Virus record (IMG/VR): IMGVR_UViG_3300028840_004217
Coordinates: 28,050 to 92,049 of that record
Origin: a virus
Reading direction: 5' to 3' (one strand)
Length of the DNA: 64,000 nucleotides
Each line of letters opens with the position of its first letter. Positions within the stretch are counted from its first letter, which is position 1. The notes beneath the pieces are model-generated. The model worked only from the letters and a program-made list of their open reading frames with translations, did no database searches and was not told the origin of the DNA. Of the stretch, positions 28,218-33,249 are shown piece after piece. The position numbers and the translations under genes are program-made.

Positions 28218-29174
28218 TCATAGGACGTTCCTTTCCACTCTGTCGGCCCGCGCCTCGTCGTCGGGATCGGGTTTCAGGCCGAGTTCTATGAACCAGTCGC
28301 AGGTGGACCCGCTGTGCTCCGTCAGGAACCGGGCCACCGCCTCCAGCTTGCGGGCCTCATGCTCGAACGTCACGCGTGCCCGTTCCAGGTGCTCCTCGTT
28401 GTGCTTGACGTCGGACGCGCAACCGGCCACCTTGTCCTTCTGCTGGTAGGCCGCCTCCTGCATGACCAGGATGACGTTCTCCTCCACCAGAGCCAGCCCC
28501 GTGATCTCGTCCTTCGGATCCTCCGCCTGTTGAGACACGACGGCCACCTCACCCGTACCCGAACACACTGAGCAGTGTACGTCACCGCCGCCGATGATAC
28601 CCGTCCCCCCGCACTCCGGACACTCCGTTGTTTTCATGATGGGCACTTCTCCTTTCCCTTGACATTGACAACACTCGTCGGCGCCCGTACCGTCACAGGC
28701 CGGGCATTTGATGAACTCCAGGATGCTGGCCACGCCCTTCGAGCTGGCCCACGGTATCACGCCGCGCCCGCCGCACCAGGTACAGGCCGTCTGCCCGACC
28801 TTCCCGCCTTCATGCCCGCAGGCGGGACACGGGATGGTCTGTCCGCAGCCGTTGCAGACGTAACACCTTTCGTCCGGCTCCTCCTCATCGGTACTCCCCT
28901 TCAGTATGCCCTCACCCCGGCATTTGTAGCACGCCGTCGTCTTGCCGGGATCGAGGACGACGGGTACGCACCCCAGGCCGCGACAGAACGGACACAGGGT
29001 ATCCAGGGGCGTGGCTTTCGTCGTGCGGCCCATGCCCTCACACGGCGTACAGAAAACCAGCCCGCCCTTGCCCCCGCATTTGTAGCAGACCTGCGGCGCG
29101 CCGTCGTCATCGACCTGGCCCGTACCGTCACAGTTATTGCAGACCTCGGGTATAGGCAACGTACTGCTGCACAT
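28218..29174 (-). CDS. DnaJ-type zinc-finger repeat protein (no J domain)
   Basis: 12 CxxCxGxG-like repeats followed by a coiled-coil C-terminus. Confidence 0.75.
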   Translation of the reverse strand: MCSSTLPIPEVCNNCDGTGQVDDDGAPQVCYKCGGKGGLVFCTPCEGMGRTTKATPLDTLCPFCRGLGCVPVVLDPGKTTACYKCRGEGILKGSTDEEEPDERCYVCNGCGQTIPCPACGHEGGKVGQTACTWCGGRGVIPWASSKGVASILEFIKCPACDGTGADECCQCQGKGEVPIMKTTECPECGGTGIIGGGDVHCSVCSGTGEVAVVSQQAEDPKDEITGLALVEENVILVMQEAAYQQKDKVAGCASDVKHNEEHLERARVTFEHEARKLEAVARFLTEHSGSTCDWFIELGLKPDPDDEARADRVERNVL

Positions 29175-29360: not shown

Positions 29361-30479
29361 TCACGAAACCCTCCCCATGCAGGCGTCATTGAAATACTTC
29401 AGGTCGTCATAGGCCAGTGGGTATTTCTCTCCGTAGTGCGCGTCCGTCATCGAGTTGATGATGAACTTGATGTCGCGCACCGACCCTATGAGGCGGCACA
29501 TCGACCACGGGATGATCAGGCGGTCCGTCCGCGTGTCCTCGCCGTGCATGCCCTGTATGCCGAGCGTGGTGTGCTCGAACTGCAACGCGCTGTCGTGATC
29601 GAGGGGTACGTGCACCCACCGCACCCACTGGTCTTTGGGAGCCTCCAGGATCGGAAGGGGGCTGGCCCGCTTGTTCCAGATCGGATCGACCATGAACACG
29701 GTATGCAGGCACCGGTTCATCTGCTGGAGCAGTTCGAGGTACAGCATCTTGTGCGGCTCGAACAGGAATGACTTCGCCGGACAGCCGGGGTTGACGCGCT
29801 TGGTCTCGAAGAACTCGACCCTGCCGTTCACGATGGCCACGCCGTCCACGTCGGCGGGCCACCCGCAGTACCACGGGTGGAGGACGTGATACACGAACAG
29901 CCTGTTGTGTATCAGGCTTTCACGCTCCGCGTCGTCCAGCTTGGTCAGCACCGTTTCGAGGGCGGTAATACGCTGGTCCTCGGTGCGGTCCTTCTCCTCA
30001 TGCTGTCGGGCGCCCTCCCACGGGCGCACCAGGGGCCGGTGATCTCTGGTCAGCCTGTAGGTCGTCAGAAGCTGGTCGATGGGCATTTTGTCCTCCCACC
30101 CTCCGTTCTGGTACAGGCGGCCTGTGAAGTCCTTCCGCTTCGCGTCGTACTGCGCGGCTACGACGACCTGGTTGTACTGTGACAGGGTGCGGGCCACGTG
30201 GGAATCGACCTGCATACGCCACGGCTCCGTCTTGGTGACGACGCGGAACCAGTACCGGGGCGGGCCGTCCTTCTCGTCGGGCATGTAATACCAGTTCGAC
30301 GATACCAGGGACCCGTCGCCCACGGCGACGGCCAGGGACCGCAGGAACACGTCCTCGAATAGGAATGATTCGAGTCGCCGGCAGTTCTCATGCTGGAGCA
30401 GCTTGCGGGCGTCGTAGTGGCTGGCCGGGTCGAACTTGCCGTCCCTGAACTCCTGTATCACGTCACGCAGGGTATTCAT
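29361..30479 (-). CDS. Hypothetical protein with a putative C-terminal PD-(D/E)XK nuclease fold
   Basis: PADVDG...FFETK motif; SD AGGAGG. Confidence 0.45.
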   Translation of the reverse strand: MNTLRDVIQEFRDGKFDPASHYDARKLLQHENCRRLESFLFEDVFLRSLAVAVGDGSLVSSNWYYMPDEKDGPPRYWFRVVTKTEPWRMQVDSHVARTLSQYNQVVVAAQYDAKRKDFTGRLYQNGGWEDKMPIDQLLTTYRLTRDHRPLVRPWEGARQHEEKDRTEDQRITALETVLTKLDDAERESLIHNRLFVYHVLHPWYCGWPADVDGVAIVNGRVEFFETKRVNPGCPAKSFLFEPHKMLYLELLQQMNRCLHTVFMVDPIWNKRASPLPILEAPKDQWVRWVHVPLDHDSALQFEHTTLGIQGMHGEDTRTDRLIIPWSMCRLIGSVRDIKFIINSMTDAHYGEKYPLAYDDLKYFNDACMGRVS

Positions 30480-30490
30480 CAGTCCTCCTG

Positions 30491-30661
30491 TGGTTTGGTT
30501 TGGCTCGCATCACTTTACTCCGCGGAACGCTGCGACGGTGCGCGTTGGTCTGCGTGGAATGTGCTTGGCATTGCGCCGCTCCGGTCCGCCGTGCTTCGGT
30601 AGACATGGCAGGGTAGGGCAGTGGTACGCGACGCGTGAGTTGACATTGGTTTGCTCCGAAT
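30491..30661 (-). ncRNA. 5-nt periodic array A (candidate guide-like RNA)
   Basis: About 34 pentamers, NN-S-C-V on the minus strand, with one 1-nt slip; ends AACCACAG then SD. Confidence 0.7.
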
Positions 30662-30663
30662 GA

Positions 30664-30951
30664 TCATCTGGTGATCGCTTTTCTCAACATCGCCATCTCG
30701 ACTTCGAGCAGAATGACCTTTTCTACGAGTTTCGTTATACCCGACACCCGCATCGGTTCTCCCGGCTTCAACTCGTATTCATCTATGAAAGCATTGATCG
30801 CTCGGTAGGCGTCGGCCTCCGTGGGTTGCGTCGGACCGGACAGGACATCGAGGGCCTTGCCGGTACCGACTGTCACCGCGCCCGTGAGCAGGTTCTTCAG
30901 AAAGGCCCGGCGTTCGGTGATGTCTTCATCGGTGAACATGATCTTGCGCAT
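30664..30951 (-). CDS. Hypothetical protein (95 aa) between arrays
   Basis: SD GAGGT; starts MRKIMF; contains RRAFLK. Confidence 0.6.
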   Translation of the reverse strand: MRKIMFTDEDITERRAFLKNLLTGAVTVGTGKALDVLSGPTQPTEADAYRAINAFIDEYELKPGEPMRVSGITKLVEKVILLEVEMAMLRKAITR

Positions 30952-30963
30952 TGTAGATACCTC

Positions 30964-31290
30964 TGCTGTGGTTCGGTCAGCCCTGGAAAGGTCATGGTTG
31001 GCCTTGGTTTGGCACGCTATACAACGGGATGGTGCGCGAAACAGTGAAACGCTCCGGTTGGCTTCGGGTAGGTATGGCGTGCCGTGAACGCTGTATGTTG
31101 TCCTCCGTTCCTCCGATGTCCGCTTCGCTTGGGATTGCTCCGCTTTGGCGTGCAAAGCGCCGCAGCACTGCGCGAGGCCGAGGCTTGGTTATCTGCGCGT
31201 TGCCGGGGGCAGCTCTGATGTGCTCAGGTGCGCGTGGTTTCACTTTGGCGTGGACAGCTCCGCAAGGCAAAGGGGAGCGGAGGTACGTTG
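30964..31290 (-). ncRNA. 5-nt periodic array B (two blocks, 30964-31084 and 31121-31290)
   Basis: 31121-31290 is 34 in-phase pentamers; on the + strand position 2 is G in 31/34 and position 3 is G/C in 31/34 (hand count). Confidence 0.75.
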
Positions 31291-31848
31291 TCATTTGCCC
31301 GGCTTCAGTATCACCGGCTCCCACCCCACGACGAGGAAACGACCGAAGGAGCCTTTCTTGGCGGGCCGGTATGCGCCGACACCCACCAGGCGGCCTGAGT
31401 CGTCGACCACCTTCTTCAACTGCTGCTCAGTGATCAGCTCGTCGTCGTACTCTACCTGGAATTTCAAACGCCACTCGTCGAAGCGCGGCCTGTAGCACCA
31501 GACCCTGCCGCCGCCTATGAACTTGTTGACGACGGTGCGCTCGTCGATGGCATACTCGGTGACGCCCAGGAACAGCTTCTCGGGCGTGATGAAGATGCAG
31601 GCCGCGGCGATCTTGGCGAGGGTGGCGCGGCCCTTGCCCTTGCTGTAGGCCCCGCCGTCGATCACGCACCGCTTCACGTTCTCTGCGGGCACGTACAGCT
31701 CCTGCGTGTCCTCGTCGCGGTAGGCGGCGTGTTCGGCCTGTTCGTCTTTGGGCAGTTTGTCGAAGTTCTCGATGGGCTGTGAGGGAAAAGCGTGCATCAG
31801 CAACCCTGGCGGCAATCCTCTGATTTCAACATCGACTTTCGCTATCAT
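31291..31848 (-). CDS. Stand-alone Cas7/RAMP-like protein
   Basis: I.G..P.LLMH first strand, YVPAENVKRC helix, RPRFDEW, and C-terminal Gly-rich loop GRLVGVGAYRP..KGSFGRF. Confidence 0.75.
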   Translation of the reverse strand: MIAKVDVEIRGLPPGLLMHAFPSQPIENFDKLPKDEQAEHAAYRDEDTQELYVPAENVKRCVIDGGAYSKGKGRATLAKIAAACIFITPEKLFLGVTEYAIDERTVVNKFIGGGRVWCYRPRFDEWRLKFQVEYDDELITEQQLKKVVDDSGRLVGVGAYRPAKKGSFGRFLVVGWEPVILKPGK

Positions 31849-31862
31849 GGTGCGGTACCTCC

Positions 31863-32347
31863 TGGCGGTGGTTCGGTTTGGTGTGATCTGCGTTGCGCAG
31901 GATCACAGGGGTTGGCAGAACAAAGGTACGTCTGGCTTTGCTGTACATTGGTTTGCGTTGCCGTTGATCGCGACGGCAGGCCGCGCTGTGATCGTATGAT
32001 TTATGTCATGTGGTCGCTCCCCCCTCTCGGACTGTGCTTTGGCAGGCGTCGGTCGGGCCAGCGTAGGCTTGCAGCGACATGGCCTGGAACGCTTTGACGT
32101 GCTCGGCAATACTCTGCTTGGATACGCAATGATTGAGTTGGCAATGAAAGGCTTCGCTCGGCTTCGCTGATCGTGGCCTTGCCGTGGCACGCCACGCAAT
32201 GCGATGCGTCTGCCGTGGCACGCGACGCTTTGGTTCTCTATGCACTGGTATGGCGTACTCCGCTGTGGCTGTCGTTGGGACGCTTTGCTTTGCAGGTCTA
32301 TGAATAGGTTGGCACTGCTGCGTTTCGGGGTGCAGCGCATTGTTACG
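31863..32347 (-). ncRNA. 5-nt periodic arrays C1 (~31863-31995) and C2 (~32035-32347)
   Basis: + strand reads tggtt cggtt tggtg tgatc tgcgt... and tgctt tggca ggcgt cggtc...; the blocks are separated by an SD and a Met-Thr-stop mini-ORF. Confidence 0.75.
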
Positions 32348-32809
32348 CTACGCATCGTAATCCTCATGATCTTCAAGGTCTCCGAGAACCCGGCGACGCT
32401 GTTCACGGAGAATCCAGCCCTTCAACGACAGACCCTCCGGTATGGCACCCGTCGCTTTCAGCGCGTCGTATTCCTGTATCGTTTCCTTCCGGTGTATATC
32501 GGCCCACGAATCGACCGTGTGGTCCTTCGGTATCTCGCCGGCACGCTGCGCCGCCAGAAAACTCACGAAGGTGCGGACCCGGTTCGACACCTGTTCTACG
32601 GACAGGCCGGGCGGCAGGCACGTCTGCGCGCACATGTAGCCGACTTCATCATCCGCCTGAAACCGGGTCCAGCCGCTTTCCACGTTCGGGTCGCTCTGTT
32701 GCTCCCGCCCGCAGACGCCGCACCGCATCATCTCACCGGAGAACAGGCCGGTGGAGAAGGTGGGTTTCGATTTCCGTTTCTTCTTTTTCCTGCGTTTCGG
32801 CTTGATCAC
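32348..32809 (-). CDS. Hypothetical protein with Lys-rich N-terminus and CxxC motifs
   Basis: SD GGGAG and GTG start at 32809; the ORF track's longer start runs into array D. Confidence 0.55.
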   Translation of the reverse strand: MIKPKRRKKKKRKSKPTFSTGLFSGEMMRCGVCGREQQSDPNVESGWTRFQADDEVGYMCAQTCLPPGLSVEQVSNRVRTFVSFLAAQRAGEIPKDHTVDSWADIHRKETIQEYDALKATGAIPEGLSLKGWILREQRRRVLGDLEDHEDYDA

Positions 32810-32825
32810 TATGTACTCCCGTCTG

Positions 32826-33003
32826 AACTGTGGTTTGCAGTACTCGGCTTTACCTCGCATATCAAGACGTCGGATCGCCAAACACCGCCCTGCTATGGCC
32901 TGCTTTGCTCGGGTTCGCCATGCTGCTCTATGCTACGCAAAGCGTCACCGCGCTATGCCCCGCAAAAGTTCACCTGGGCTGGCCTCGACCAGCATCACTG
33001 TAA
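32826..33003 (-). ncRNA. 5-nt periodic array D
   Basis: 32831-33000 is 34 in-phase pentamers; on the + strand position 3 is G/C in 33/34 and position 2 is G in 24/34 (hand count). Confidence 0.75.
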
Positions 33004-33249
33004 TCACAAGTCAATAACTTCATCCTGGGGTGTCAGGTCCTCCAGCACCACGTCGGGCGGCTGGCTGTATACCCCCTCACCCGCCGTCAGCTTCCACAGG
33101 GTGTCCTCGAAGGTCACATAGACACTTCGATTGTTGTTCACCTGGAGGGCATTGAACACCTTGCCGCATACCTGGTGAAAGTTCTTCTTGGCGGCTTCGA
33201 GCGCGTTCAGCATTTCAAAATACTCTTTGGCGAGTTCAGGAGTCAGCAT
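33004..33249 (-). CDS. Hypothetical protein
   Basis: SD GGAGG; starts MLTPEL. Confidence 0.55.
   Translation of the reverse strand: MLTPELAKEYFEMLNALEAAKKNFHQVCGKVFNALQVNNNRSVYVTFEDTLWKLTAGEGVYSQPPDVVLEDLTPQDEVIDL

What the first reader, a model, noticed from the sequence alone, without database searches (positions are those of the whole stretch)
30483..33006. Each pentamer array runs from a stop codon to a conserved AACCACAG-like end and an SD; a two-codon mini-ORF separates two arrays
Seen on the minus strand: arrays start within a few nt of stop codons (33004, 32348, 32001, 31291, 30664). They end in AACCACAG (D, B, A), AACCACCG (C1) or AAGCACAG (C2), directly before a Shine-Dalgarno. Between C2 and C1 the only gene is GGAG-N7-ATG ACA TAA (32001-32009). 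The break inside array B (31085-31120) also carries two GGAGG motifs. Inference: with no Cas6 present, guide boundaries may be set by ribosomes or by a 3' handle. Alternatively, filament assembly on each array could control translation of the next gene.
Basis: partly seen in the sequence, partly recalled or inferred. Interest (0 to 1): 0.7.

Follow-up and report, generated by a model that had tools for sequence, protein, structure and literature searches.

The report
Guide-array ends in a phage VIPR locus
The five-base-periodic tracts are the guide-RNA arrays of a phage VIPR system (a CRISPR-related RNA-guided DNA silencer first described in 2026 preprints), here a divergent version in which each array fills the gap between two genes and ends in a conserved two-unit motif next to the following ribosome-binding site.

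Summary
Six tracts on the minus strand (30488-33001) keep a strict 5-nt rhythm. Each starts 0-11 nt after a stop codon or spacer. Five end in AA[C/G]CAC[A/C]G, and a GGAG-type motif follows 0-11 nt later.

The 185-aa gene among them is a Vipr protein: its predicted fold matches Csm3/Cas7, and its family profile hits solved SUSP1 Vipr at E 2.3e-11. So this is a VIPR locus, a kind published in 2026 preprints. This scan has already noted VIPR loci in at least 15 other genomes.

It is a variant in three ways:
- The repeat is (A)-(G/C)-C-N-N, not GGY-NN.
- The Asp that reads the first G is Ala here, but Asp or Glu in all 111 relatives.
- There is no structured tail and no ribozyme.

In 196 array ends from relatives, the last three units are A-rich whether a gene, another array or nothing follows. 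The conserved end therefore belongs to the guide RNA, not to the ribosome site.

Ribosome-set boundaries are not supported as a general rule. Translational control by the filament fits the geometry but is untested. The mini-ORF has no support beyond chance. No RNA data exist, so the true RNA ends are unknown.

The parts
32828..33001 (-). Array D: about 35 pentamer units, ending in AACCACAG (32835-32828)
   Evidence: Phase-tracking model; sequence. It starts 3 nt after the stop at 33004.
32348..32809 (-). 153-aa ORF. GTG start at 32809, with SD GGGAG at 32820-32816. Lys/Arg-rich N-terminus and a CxxC...CxxxC motif. Function unknown.
   Evidence: Coding-type GC1/2/3 of 0.61/0.44/0.74. No Pfam, PHROG, NCBIfam or PADLOC hit. 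Not present in 31 relatives' loci.
32032..32357 (-). Array C2: 63 five-base units plus one 6-nt unit near 32215, ending in AAGCACAG (32039-32032)
32001..32031 (-). C2/C1 spacer holding GGAG (32020-32017), 7 nt, then ATG ACA TAA (32009-32001)
   Evidence: There is only weak similarity to the B1/B2 spacer, where the ATG is missing (31 of 500 shuffles reach the score).
31866..31990 (-). Array C1: about 24 units, ending in AACCACCG (31873-31866). AGGAGG at 31863-31858 is the vipr SD.
31291..31848 (-). vipr: 185-aa minimal RAMP protein. His19, Arg120, Tyr160 and Arg161 are kept. Ala159 stands at the position of SUSP1 Asp177.
   Evidence: AlphaFold pLDDT 88. Foldseek to Csm3, E 2.5e-7; VIA Z 10.1. 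Family profile to PDB 36pp SUSP1 Vipr, E 2.3e-11. BLASTP to a Felixounavirus Vipr, 6e-16. phrog_4652.
31122..31287 (-). Array B1: 32 units, with the weaker end AAGCGAAG (31130-31123)
   Evidence: Its two ends form a 20-nt inverted repeat that is 75% complementary.
31087..31121 (-). B1/B2 spacer with GGAGG at 31114-31110 and 31106-31102. No start codon follows.
30966..31086 (-). Array B2: about 24 units with one +1 slip, ending in AACCACAG (30973-30966). GAGG at 30963-30960.
30664..30951 (-). 95-aa ORF, function unknown
   Evidence: Coding-type GC profile; no family hits apart from one borderline NCBIfam Tat-signal match
30488..30658 (-). Array A: 33 units with one +1 slip, ending in AACCACAG (30495-30488). 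The end overlaps GGAGG (30488-30484).
29361..30479 (-). 372-aa ORF directly behind array A, with weak hints of a PD-(D/E)XK nuclease fold
   Evidence: Atlas structure rows with TM 0.31-0.34 to PDDEXK and RecU clusters. No HMM hits. Not conserved next to vipr in relatives.

Best explanation
This is a VIPR locus inside a long early phage operon. All six intergenic tracts are vrRNA arrays.

Shown here:
- The protein is a Vipr homologue.
- The arrays keep the register Y-N-N-x-S, with C at 0.84 in the fixed pyrimidine position.
- The first G of the canonical GGY is lost, together with the Asp that reads it.
- Each array ends in two units with fixed 'variable' bases, C-(A/G)A-A(C/G) then C-AC-(A/C)G. 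This corresponds to the A-rich terminal units ...GGY-AA-GGY-AN-GG of relatives.

Taken from the preprints, for type II systems:
- One Vipr protomer binds per pentamer.
- The NN pairs read double-stranded DNA with a one-base skip.
- A conserved 3' element caps the guide.

Inferred:
- The terminal units are the 3' handle of this tail-less clade. They mark where the filament ends or starts.
- The guide is released from the polycistronic RNA because Vipr protects the array while host nucleases remove the rest.
- The flush fit between stop codon and ribosome site reflects arrays filling all the intergenic space of a compact operon.
- A likely side effect is that the filament or the 3' cut competes with the 30S subunit at the next start, including that of vipr.
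For: - Fold and sequence identity of Vipr.
- Array phase model and its position weights.
- 108 of 111 relatives carry GGY arrays beside the gene.
- All 111 relatives have Asp or Glu at the Asp177-equivalent position with G1 near 0.93. The window has Ala with G1 at 0.19. In SUSP1, D177A abolishes silencing (bioRxiv 10.64898/2026.04.26.720927).
- At 196 array ends, A at N4 of the last three units is 0.55, 0.74 and 0.69, against 0.31 in interior units. This does not depend on what follows.
- AACCACAG occurs 3 times in the window, all at array ends.
- The motif stays in phase with the array while its distance to the SD varies.
- NN usage matches sense codon positions 1-2 only (r 0.55 here, 0.64 in relatives; other frames -0.52 to 0.09). 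This is what the published wobble-skip code predicts.
- There is no strong minus-strand promoter (one weak 9/12 match lies just before array A) and no terminator between the arrays.
Against: - No RNA data exist for this phage, so no RNA end has been seen.
- The arrays have 24-63 units, against 9-16 in the characterised guides, so each array may yield several guides with unknown internal borders.
- The array ends fold no better than shuffled sequence (z -0.05 to +1.46), unlike the SUSP1 pseudoknot tail. The handle role therefore rests on conservation alone.
- B1 has only a weak version of the motif.
- No target was found.
- The Asp-to-Ala and G1-loss link rests on a single lineage.
Confidence: 0.6

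Rival explanations
1. The arrays act in cis as translational operators. Vipr polymerises on the array upstream of each start codon and blocks, or is displaced by, the 30S subunit. This gives autoregulation of vipr and timed control of the neighbouring genes. It could hold in addition to guide production.
For: The terminal G lies 8-18 nt before real start codons, inside the known 30S footprint of about -35 to +19 (established knowledge; coordinates). In relatives, 53 of 81 loci have an array ending within 86 nt (mostly 6-36 nt) upstream of the vipr start, and 90 of 196 array ends are followed by an SD plus ORF.
Against: More than half of the array ends in relatives have no gene behind them. The genes behind the arrays are not conserved. 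Tight packing is also expected from a compact operon alone. There is no expression data.
Confidence: 0.25
2. Ribosomes set the guide boundaries. Terminating and initiating ribosomes, including one parked on the mini-ORF, protect or expose the RNA so that nucleases cut exactly at the array edges.
For: Arrays start 0-11 nt after stop codons or spacers and end next to SD motifs. SD-like motifs also follow the two internal array ends. SD-like 4-mers occur in 36 of 70 inter-array spacers of relatives, against 26.3 +/- 3.4 in shuffles.
Against: The mini-ORF ATG is missing in the paralogous B1/B2 spacer. By the author's own rough estimate, a start codon at a suitable distance after an SD arises by chance in roughly 1 of 4 cases for ATG/GTG/TTG and about 1 of 14 for ATG alone. 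Many relatives' spacers have no SD at all, or carry ribozyme-like or promoter-like elements. The conserved end is independent of a following gene.
Confidence: 0.08
3. AACCACAG is only a version of this phage's general ribosome-site context (CACAAGGAG) and has nothing to do with the arrays.
For: CACAAGGAG occurs 12 times in the window, mostly before early minus-strand genes, and array A ends in CCACAGGAGG.
Against: In the phage-wide motif, CACAA abuts GGAG directly. At the arrays the gap is 0-11 nt, while the motif keeps the array's 5-nt phase in all five cases. It also occurs before the gene-less C2/C1 spacer. Relatives with other ribosome-site contexts have an equivalent A-rich end without a following gene.
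Confidence: 0.07
4. The periodicity is a DNA-level feature, for example protein-binding iterons or curvature, and not an RNA.
For: GC is a palindromic dinucleotide and the lag-10 signal is also high.
Against: Orientation is strict: arrays lie on the vipr coding strand in the 111 relatives' loci. The variable bases are strand-asymmetric and match sense codon usage. The partner protein is an RNA-binding RAMP with solved RNA complexes.
Confidence: 0.02

Closest known systems
Type II VIPR of Escherichia phage SUSP1 and a P. fulva prophage (bioRxiv 10.64898/2026.04.26.720920 and .720927; PDB 36pp)
   Same: A minimal RAMP protein of about 20 kDa, with pentamer repeats made of a fixed trinucleotide and a variable NN, on the same strand beside the gene and phage-encoded. 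A conserved element sits at the 3' end of each guide. His17, Arg138, Trp/Tyr178 and Arg179 equivalents are kept.
   Different: The repeat here is (A)(G/C)C-NN, not GGY-NN. Asp177 is Ala. Arrays have 24-63 units instead of 9-16. There is no ~40-nt structured tail or pseudoknot. Arrays lie between ORFs of one operon and are not separate small transcripts. No conserved vap gene is present.
VIPR arrays with hammerhead ribozymes or 'staggered' guides (types I and V; figs S18-S19 of the discovery preprint)
   Same: The ~50%-identical relatives of this Vipr include loci with a hammerhead-like spacer (L059, 30 bits, E 0.022) or conserved 60-70-nt spacers, and long arrays with occasional 6-nt units. 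The window also has three +1 slips.
   Different: No ribozyme reaches E<=1 in the window. Slips are rare here, at 3 in about 211 units. The spacers are short and carry SD-like motifs.
Non-canonical VIPR repeats (NNNGG, YNNNG, NNNNG in the discovery preprint; GAC/NN, CAC/NN, WGT/NN, TGH/NN in bioRxiv 10.64898/2026.10.21.760802)
   Same: A divergent fixed trinucleotide paired with a Vipr-like fold.
   Different: The ASC-NN consensus is not among the examples named in the text available to me. The matching Asp-to-Ala change in the G-loop is shown here for this lineage only.
Class 1 CRISPR backbone (Csm3/Cmr4/Cas7 filament on crRNA with a repeat-derived handle)
   Same: The protein fold matches (Z about 10). 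A helical filament forms along a guide, a conserved handle sits at one end of the guide, and the other end is trimmed by host nucleases in type III systems.
   Different: The period is 5 nt instead of 6. There is no repeat-spacer array and no Cas6, Cas5 or Cas10. The guide bases are non-contiguous.

Membership tests
VIPR system | Vipr protein: a small stand-alone RAMP (RRM core, G-loop, thumb) homologous to characterised Vipr | tested here: met
   Model pLDDT 88. All top fold hits are Csm3/Cmr4/Cas7. Family profile to SUSP1 Vipr 36pp, E 2.3e-11. BLASTP to a Felixounavirus Vipr, 6e-16.
VIPR system | Tandem pentanucleotide repeats with a fixed trinucleotide and a variable dinucleotide, beside vipr on its strand | tested here: met
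   Six arrays totalling about 211 units. Position weights are A .45 / G .62 C .30 / C .84 / N / N. The same layout is found in 108 of 111 relatives.
VIPR system | Canonical GGY consensus of the repeat | tested here: not met
   A GGY model trained on the relatives finds no array in the window. G at position 1 is only 0.19. The preprints allow 'a related consensus'.
VIPR system | Residues that read G1 (His17 and Asp177 of SUSP1) | tested here: not met
   His19 is present, but Ala159 aligns with Asp177. All 111 relatives have Asp or Glu at this position. This matches the loss of G1 in the repeat.
VIPR system | Residues that hold G2 and Y3 (Arg138, Trp/Tyr178, Arg179) | tested here: met
   Arg120, Tyr160 and Arg161 align with them.
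VIPR system | Invariable 3' tail after the repeats (~40 nt and structured in the SUSP1 clade) | tested here: inconclusive
   A conserved end exists, but it is 8-10 nt long and lies inside the repeat register. The 76-nt end regions fold no better than shuffles. Flanks beyond the motif are not similar to each other.
VIPR system | Accessory vap gene next to vipr | tested here: inconclusive
   The ORFs of 153, 95 and 372 aa interleaved with the arrays have no family hits, and no counterpart near the relatives' vipr genes.
VIPR system | vrRNAs are expressed and co-purify with Vipr | not testable with these tools
   Needs small-RNA sequencing and a Vipr pull-down.
VIPR system | NN bases match DNA targets with a one-base skip | tested here: inconclusive
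   There is no self-target above shuffled controls in the 92-kb contig. Two pattern scans of viral contigs gave 0 hits and 1 chance hit. NN usage does match sense codon positions 1-2.
Class 1 CRISPR-Cas | Repeat-spacer array with a 6-nt backbone periodicity, plus Cas5, Cas6 or a large subunit | tested here: not met
   Tandem Repeats Finder reports no CRISPR-like repeats. The period is 5. No Cas family hit appears in PADLOC or Pfam for the six neighbouring ORFs.
Ribozyme-separated VIPR arrays | Hammerhead ribozyme between arrays | tested here: not met
   An Rfam search of 27-39 kb at E<=1 gives no ribozyme. One relative, L059, has a sub-threshold hammerhead II match.

The most novel reading that the evidence does not exclude
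In this tail-less VIPR clade the guides are not free-standing small RNAs. They are intergenic parts of an mRNA. A short linear handle, the last two or three repeat units with fixed A-rich 'variable' bases, would nucleate or cap the Vipr filament directly at the next ribosome-binding site. Guide maturation and translation of vipr and its neighbours would then be mechanically coupled, giving an autoregulatory circuit. The window would also show a natural re-coding of the repeat (GGY to ASC) through one Asp-to-Ala change in the G-loop.
Probability: 0.2. Interest if true: 0.6.

Novelty: new variant of a known kind. Interest (0 to 1): 0.35.

Why it matters
The VIPR preprints characterise guides with a structured 3' tail. 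The text I could read has no mention of 'biogenesis', RNase treatment or RNA processing of guides. How guides are cut out of longer transcripts therefore appears to be open.

This locus and its roughly 110 relatives give a concrete, testable layout: arrays flush between a stop codon and a ribosome site, ending in conserved A-rich units that do not depend on the downstream gene.

The window also offers a natural specificity variant. The first G of the repeat is lost together with the Asp that reads it. This could be tested with a single A159D or D177A swap and would inform the design of orthogonal VIPR tools.

None of this changes what kind of system it is.

Tried and rejected
The contexts of the 234 metagenome homologues could not be fetched that way, so the search for related loci was used instead.
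- Public runs: no RNA holder is listed, and the two DNA holders may be the source samples.
- Single-protein scan of viral contigs: no close relative. The nearest homologues are 57% identical or less, so array ends could only be compared with distant relatives.
- Self-targets under skip rules 0-3: the best score is 19-20 of 24, the same as shuffled guides. Skip 3 only finds the arrays themselves.
- Target scans with nine-unit NNx patterns from arrays A and D gave 0 hits and 1 hit (L113). Outside the pattern the hit matches only 14 of 52 positions, which is chance level.
- Conserved structure at the array ends: none.
- Idea that the mini-ORF is a relic copy of the vipr start: C2 and C1 flank similarity has p about 0.16, so it is not supported.
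- Array-bracketing stems: only B1 has one, 20 nt at 75% complementarity, and it is not general.
- Rfam at gathering score on 20 relatives: nothing.
- Two further period-5 peaks, at 37.7 kb and 61.6 kb, are not arrays.
- TRAP-like triplet operators, Hfq or CsrA sites, G-quadruplex tracts and DNA iterons were considered before the Vipr identification and then dropped.
- Literature searches for 5-nt periodicity found nothing relevant. The VIPR papers came up with the terms 'pentanucleotide repeat', 'Cas7' and 'RAMP'.
- The supplementary tables of the discovery preprint are not held, so the VIPR type could not be assigned.
Full report
**What is in the sequence**

Read on the minus strand, the five gaps between the genes at 30.4-33.0 kb show same-base matches at lag 5 of 0.38-0.45. 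Neighbouring lags give about 0.25. Written in fives, the gaps show a fixed dinucleotide followed by three variable bases.

A sliding scan of the whole window, and later of the whole 92-kb contig, marks these gaps. The only other places that pass are a few weak ones; the two in the window that I looked at are not arrays.

A six-state phase-tracking model trained on the region gives six arrays:
- D, 33001-32828
- C2, 32357-32032
- C1, 31990-31866
- B1, 31287-31122
- B2, 31086-30966
- A, 30658-30488

Unit weights are A .45 / G .62 or C .30 / C .84 / N / N. There are only three one-base slips in about 211 units.

Every coordinate in the finding checks out. One correction applies: the gene after D most likely starts at GTG 32809, six bases after GGGAG. 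The three small ORFs between the arrays have GC1/2/3 profiles like the phage's other genes, so the stop codons are real gene ends.

**The end motif**

AACCACAG occurs three times on both strands of the window, and all three are array ends. The looser AA[CG]CAC[AC]G pattern adds the ends of C1 and C2.

In the register used by the VIPR authors (Y-N-N-G-G), the motif is simply the last two units: C-(A/G)A-A(C/G), then C-AC-(A/C)G. It stays in phase with the array in all five cases. The distance to the following GGAG, GAGG or GGGAG motif varies from 0 to 11 nt.

The phage does have a general ribosome-site context, CACAAGGAG, at 12 places. That motif is locked to the SD, however, whereas the array motif is locked to the array. 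B1 has only a weak version of the end motif, AAGCGAAG.

**What the system is**

The 185-aa ORF between C1 and B1 has no Pfam hit and belongs to phrog_4652, of unknown function. It has more than 230 metagenome homologues at about 50% identity.

An AlphaFold model built on 30 of them has pLDDT 88. Its best matches are all CRISPR backbone subunits: Csm3 by Foldseek at E 2.5e-7, and VIA Z 10.1 over 157 residues, followed by Cmr4, type VII Cas7 and type IV Csf2.

A literature search then found three 2026 preprints on VIPR systems. In these systems:
- A phage-encoded minimal RAMP protein, Vipr, polymerises one protomer per pentamer on vrRNAs of 9-16 YNNGG repeats.
- An invariable 3' tail follows the repeats.
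- The NN pairs read double-stranded DNA with a one-base skip.

The profile of the window's family hits the solved SUSP1 Vipr (PDB 36pp) at E 2.3e-11. BLASTP to the Vipr of a Felixounavirus, whose residue numbering matches that published for SUSP1, gives 6e-16.

This is therefore a VIPR locus. The scan has already noted such loci in at least 15 other genomes, and boundary or punctuation notes exist for at least six.

**How it differs**

I collected 111 loci encoding relatives: 31 from IMG/VR and 80 from metagenomes.
- 108 of them carry arrays beside the gene on its strand, with weights G .95 / G .96 / Y / N / N. The three exceptions are short contigs.
- The same GGY model finds nothing in the window. 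The window's repeat has lost the first G and accepts C at the second position.
- In the published structures, G1 is read by His17 and by Asp177 of the G-loop, and D177A abolishes silencing.
- All 111 relatives have Asp (103) or Glu (8) at that position. The window alone has Ala159, while His19, Arg120, Tyr160 and Arg161 are kept.

Protein and RNA have thus changed together. This rests on one lineage. Non-canonical VIPR repeats as such have been reported before.

**Do the boundaries generalise?**

I compared 196 non-redundant array 3' ends from the relatives.
- The last three units have A at N4 in 0.55, 0.74 and 0.69 of cases, against 0.31 in 4354 interior units.
- A at N5 is 0.49, 0.62 and 0.54, against 0.36.
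- The array closes with GG, followed by A/T-rich sequence.
- Beyond that point there is no conservation across loci.

The enrichment is the same whether an SD plus ORF follows (90 ends), another array follows (59) or neither does (47). The conserved end therefore belongs to the array. The window's CAAAC-CACAG is its counterpart in a changed repeat.

At the 5' side there is only a weak preference for a leading pyrimidine.

The flush layout is also general:
- In 53 of 81 loci an array ends within 86 nt of the vipr start, mostly within 6-36 nt.
- In 40 of 68 loci an array starts between -8 and +30 nt of its stop.

No neighbouring gene is conserved across the clade. The large ORF 'families' that appear in clustering are spurious frames running through the arrays.

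**What separates arrays**

The 70 distinct inter-array spacers of the relatives are heterogeneous. They include:
- short A/T-rich spacers;
- spacers with an SD-like motif, such as the three tandem copies in L001, of which only the last serves vipr;
- promoter-like spacers;
- conserved 60-70-nt spacers.

One spacer, in L059, matches hammerhead type II below threshold (30 bits, E 0.022). This agrees with the preprint's ribozyme-interspersed arrays.

In the window there is no ribozyme at E<=1. Between the arrays there is no strong minus-strand promoter and no terminator; the only candidate is a weak 9/12 promoter-like match just before array A. The array ends show no structure above shuffles (z -0.05 to +1.46), and their flanks are not similar to each other.

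The two internal spacers resemble each other only weakly (31 of 500 shuffles reach the score), and the ATG of the mini-ORF is absent from the second. I therefore give the mini-ORF no weight.

**Are the arrays guides?**

The NN usage of the window's arrays correlates with the codon position 1-2 dinucleotides of the phage's genes in sense orientation (r 0.55; r 0.64 for relatives). It does not correlate with any other frame or with the antisense (r -0.52 to 0.09). The published wobble-skip code predicts exactly this.

No target was found:
- There is no self-match above shuffled guides.
- Two pattern scans of viral contigs gave nothing, apart from one chance hit that does not extend.
- No RNA run holds this phage, so the RNA ends remain unobserved.

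**Reading**

- The 3' handle idea is supported by conservation and by analogy with the published tail.
- Ribosome-set boundaries are not supported as a general mechanism.
- Control of the next gene's translation by the filament is physically plausible, because the last units lie inside the 30S footprint, but it is untested.
- The simplest account of 'stop codon to SD' is that arrays occupy all the intergenic space of a compact operon.

The locus is a new variant of a known kind. It has an ASC-NN repeat with the matching Asp-to-Ala change. Its arrays are long, lack a structured tail and are embedded in an operon.

Noticed in passing
window, 12 sites, e.g. 37725, 36665, 26576, 25820, 23945, 20731 (minus strand): The phage-wide ribosome-site context CACAAGGAG occurs 12 times, mostly before early minus-strand genes. 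It resembles the array-end motif but is distinct from it.
   Followed up: partly
window about 32215 (C2), about 30995 (B2), about 30565 (A), minus strand: Three single 6-nt units (+1 phase slips) occur inside otherwise unbroken arrays. In other VIPR loci, such slips were read by earlier agents of this scan as borders between guides. Here they would split the arrays into blocks of about 6-36 units.
   Followed up: no
window 31119-31138 and 31262-31281: The two ends of array B1 form a 20-nt inverted repeat that is 75% complementary. It is the longest in the region, and no other array has one.
   Followed up: partly
L059:1006-1062; also spacers in L036, L039, L053, L062, L064 and in L097, L110, L112: Relatives separate arrays with conserved 60-70-nt spacers. 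One matches hammerhead type II below threshold (30 bits). The others carry GUC, C(U/C)GAUGA or CUGACGGAG-like cores but were not called by Rfam.
   Followed up: partly
L001-L112, arrays, mostly antisense strand: Open frames of about 100 codons run through the pentamer arrays and cluster together across 102 loci. Gene callers are likely to annotate them as hypothetical proteins.
   Followed up: no
window arrays and 257 arrays of relatives: The NN dinucleotide usage of the arrays follows sense codon positions 1-2 (r 0.55 and 0.64) and no other frame. This suggests the guides mostly have the polarity of their targets' coding strand.
   Followed up: yes
window 29361-30479 (minus strand): The 372-aa ORF behind array A has weak structural hints of a PD-(D/E)XK or RecU-like core (TM 0.31-0.34). 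It has relatives of unknown function in bacteria and phages, and it is not linked to vipr in the relatives' loci.
   Followed up: partly
window 28218-29174 (minus strand): This 318-aa ORF has a DnaJ-type CXXCXGXG zinc-finger domain (Pfam E 2.5e-13).
   Followed up: no
L021:4714-4756; L025 and L026 just after their downstream arrays: Some spacers or array flanks in relatives carry near-consensus TTGACA-17-TAxxxT promoters, so arrays there may be transcribed on their own.
   Followed up: no
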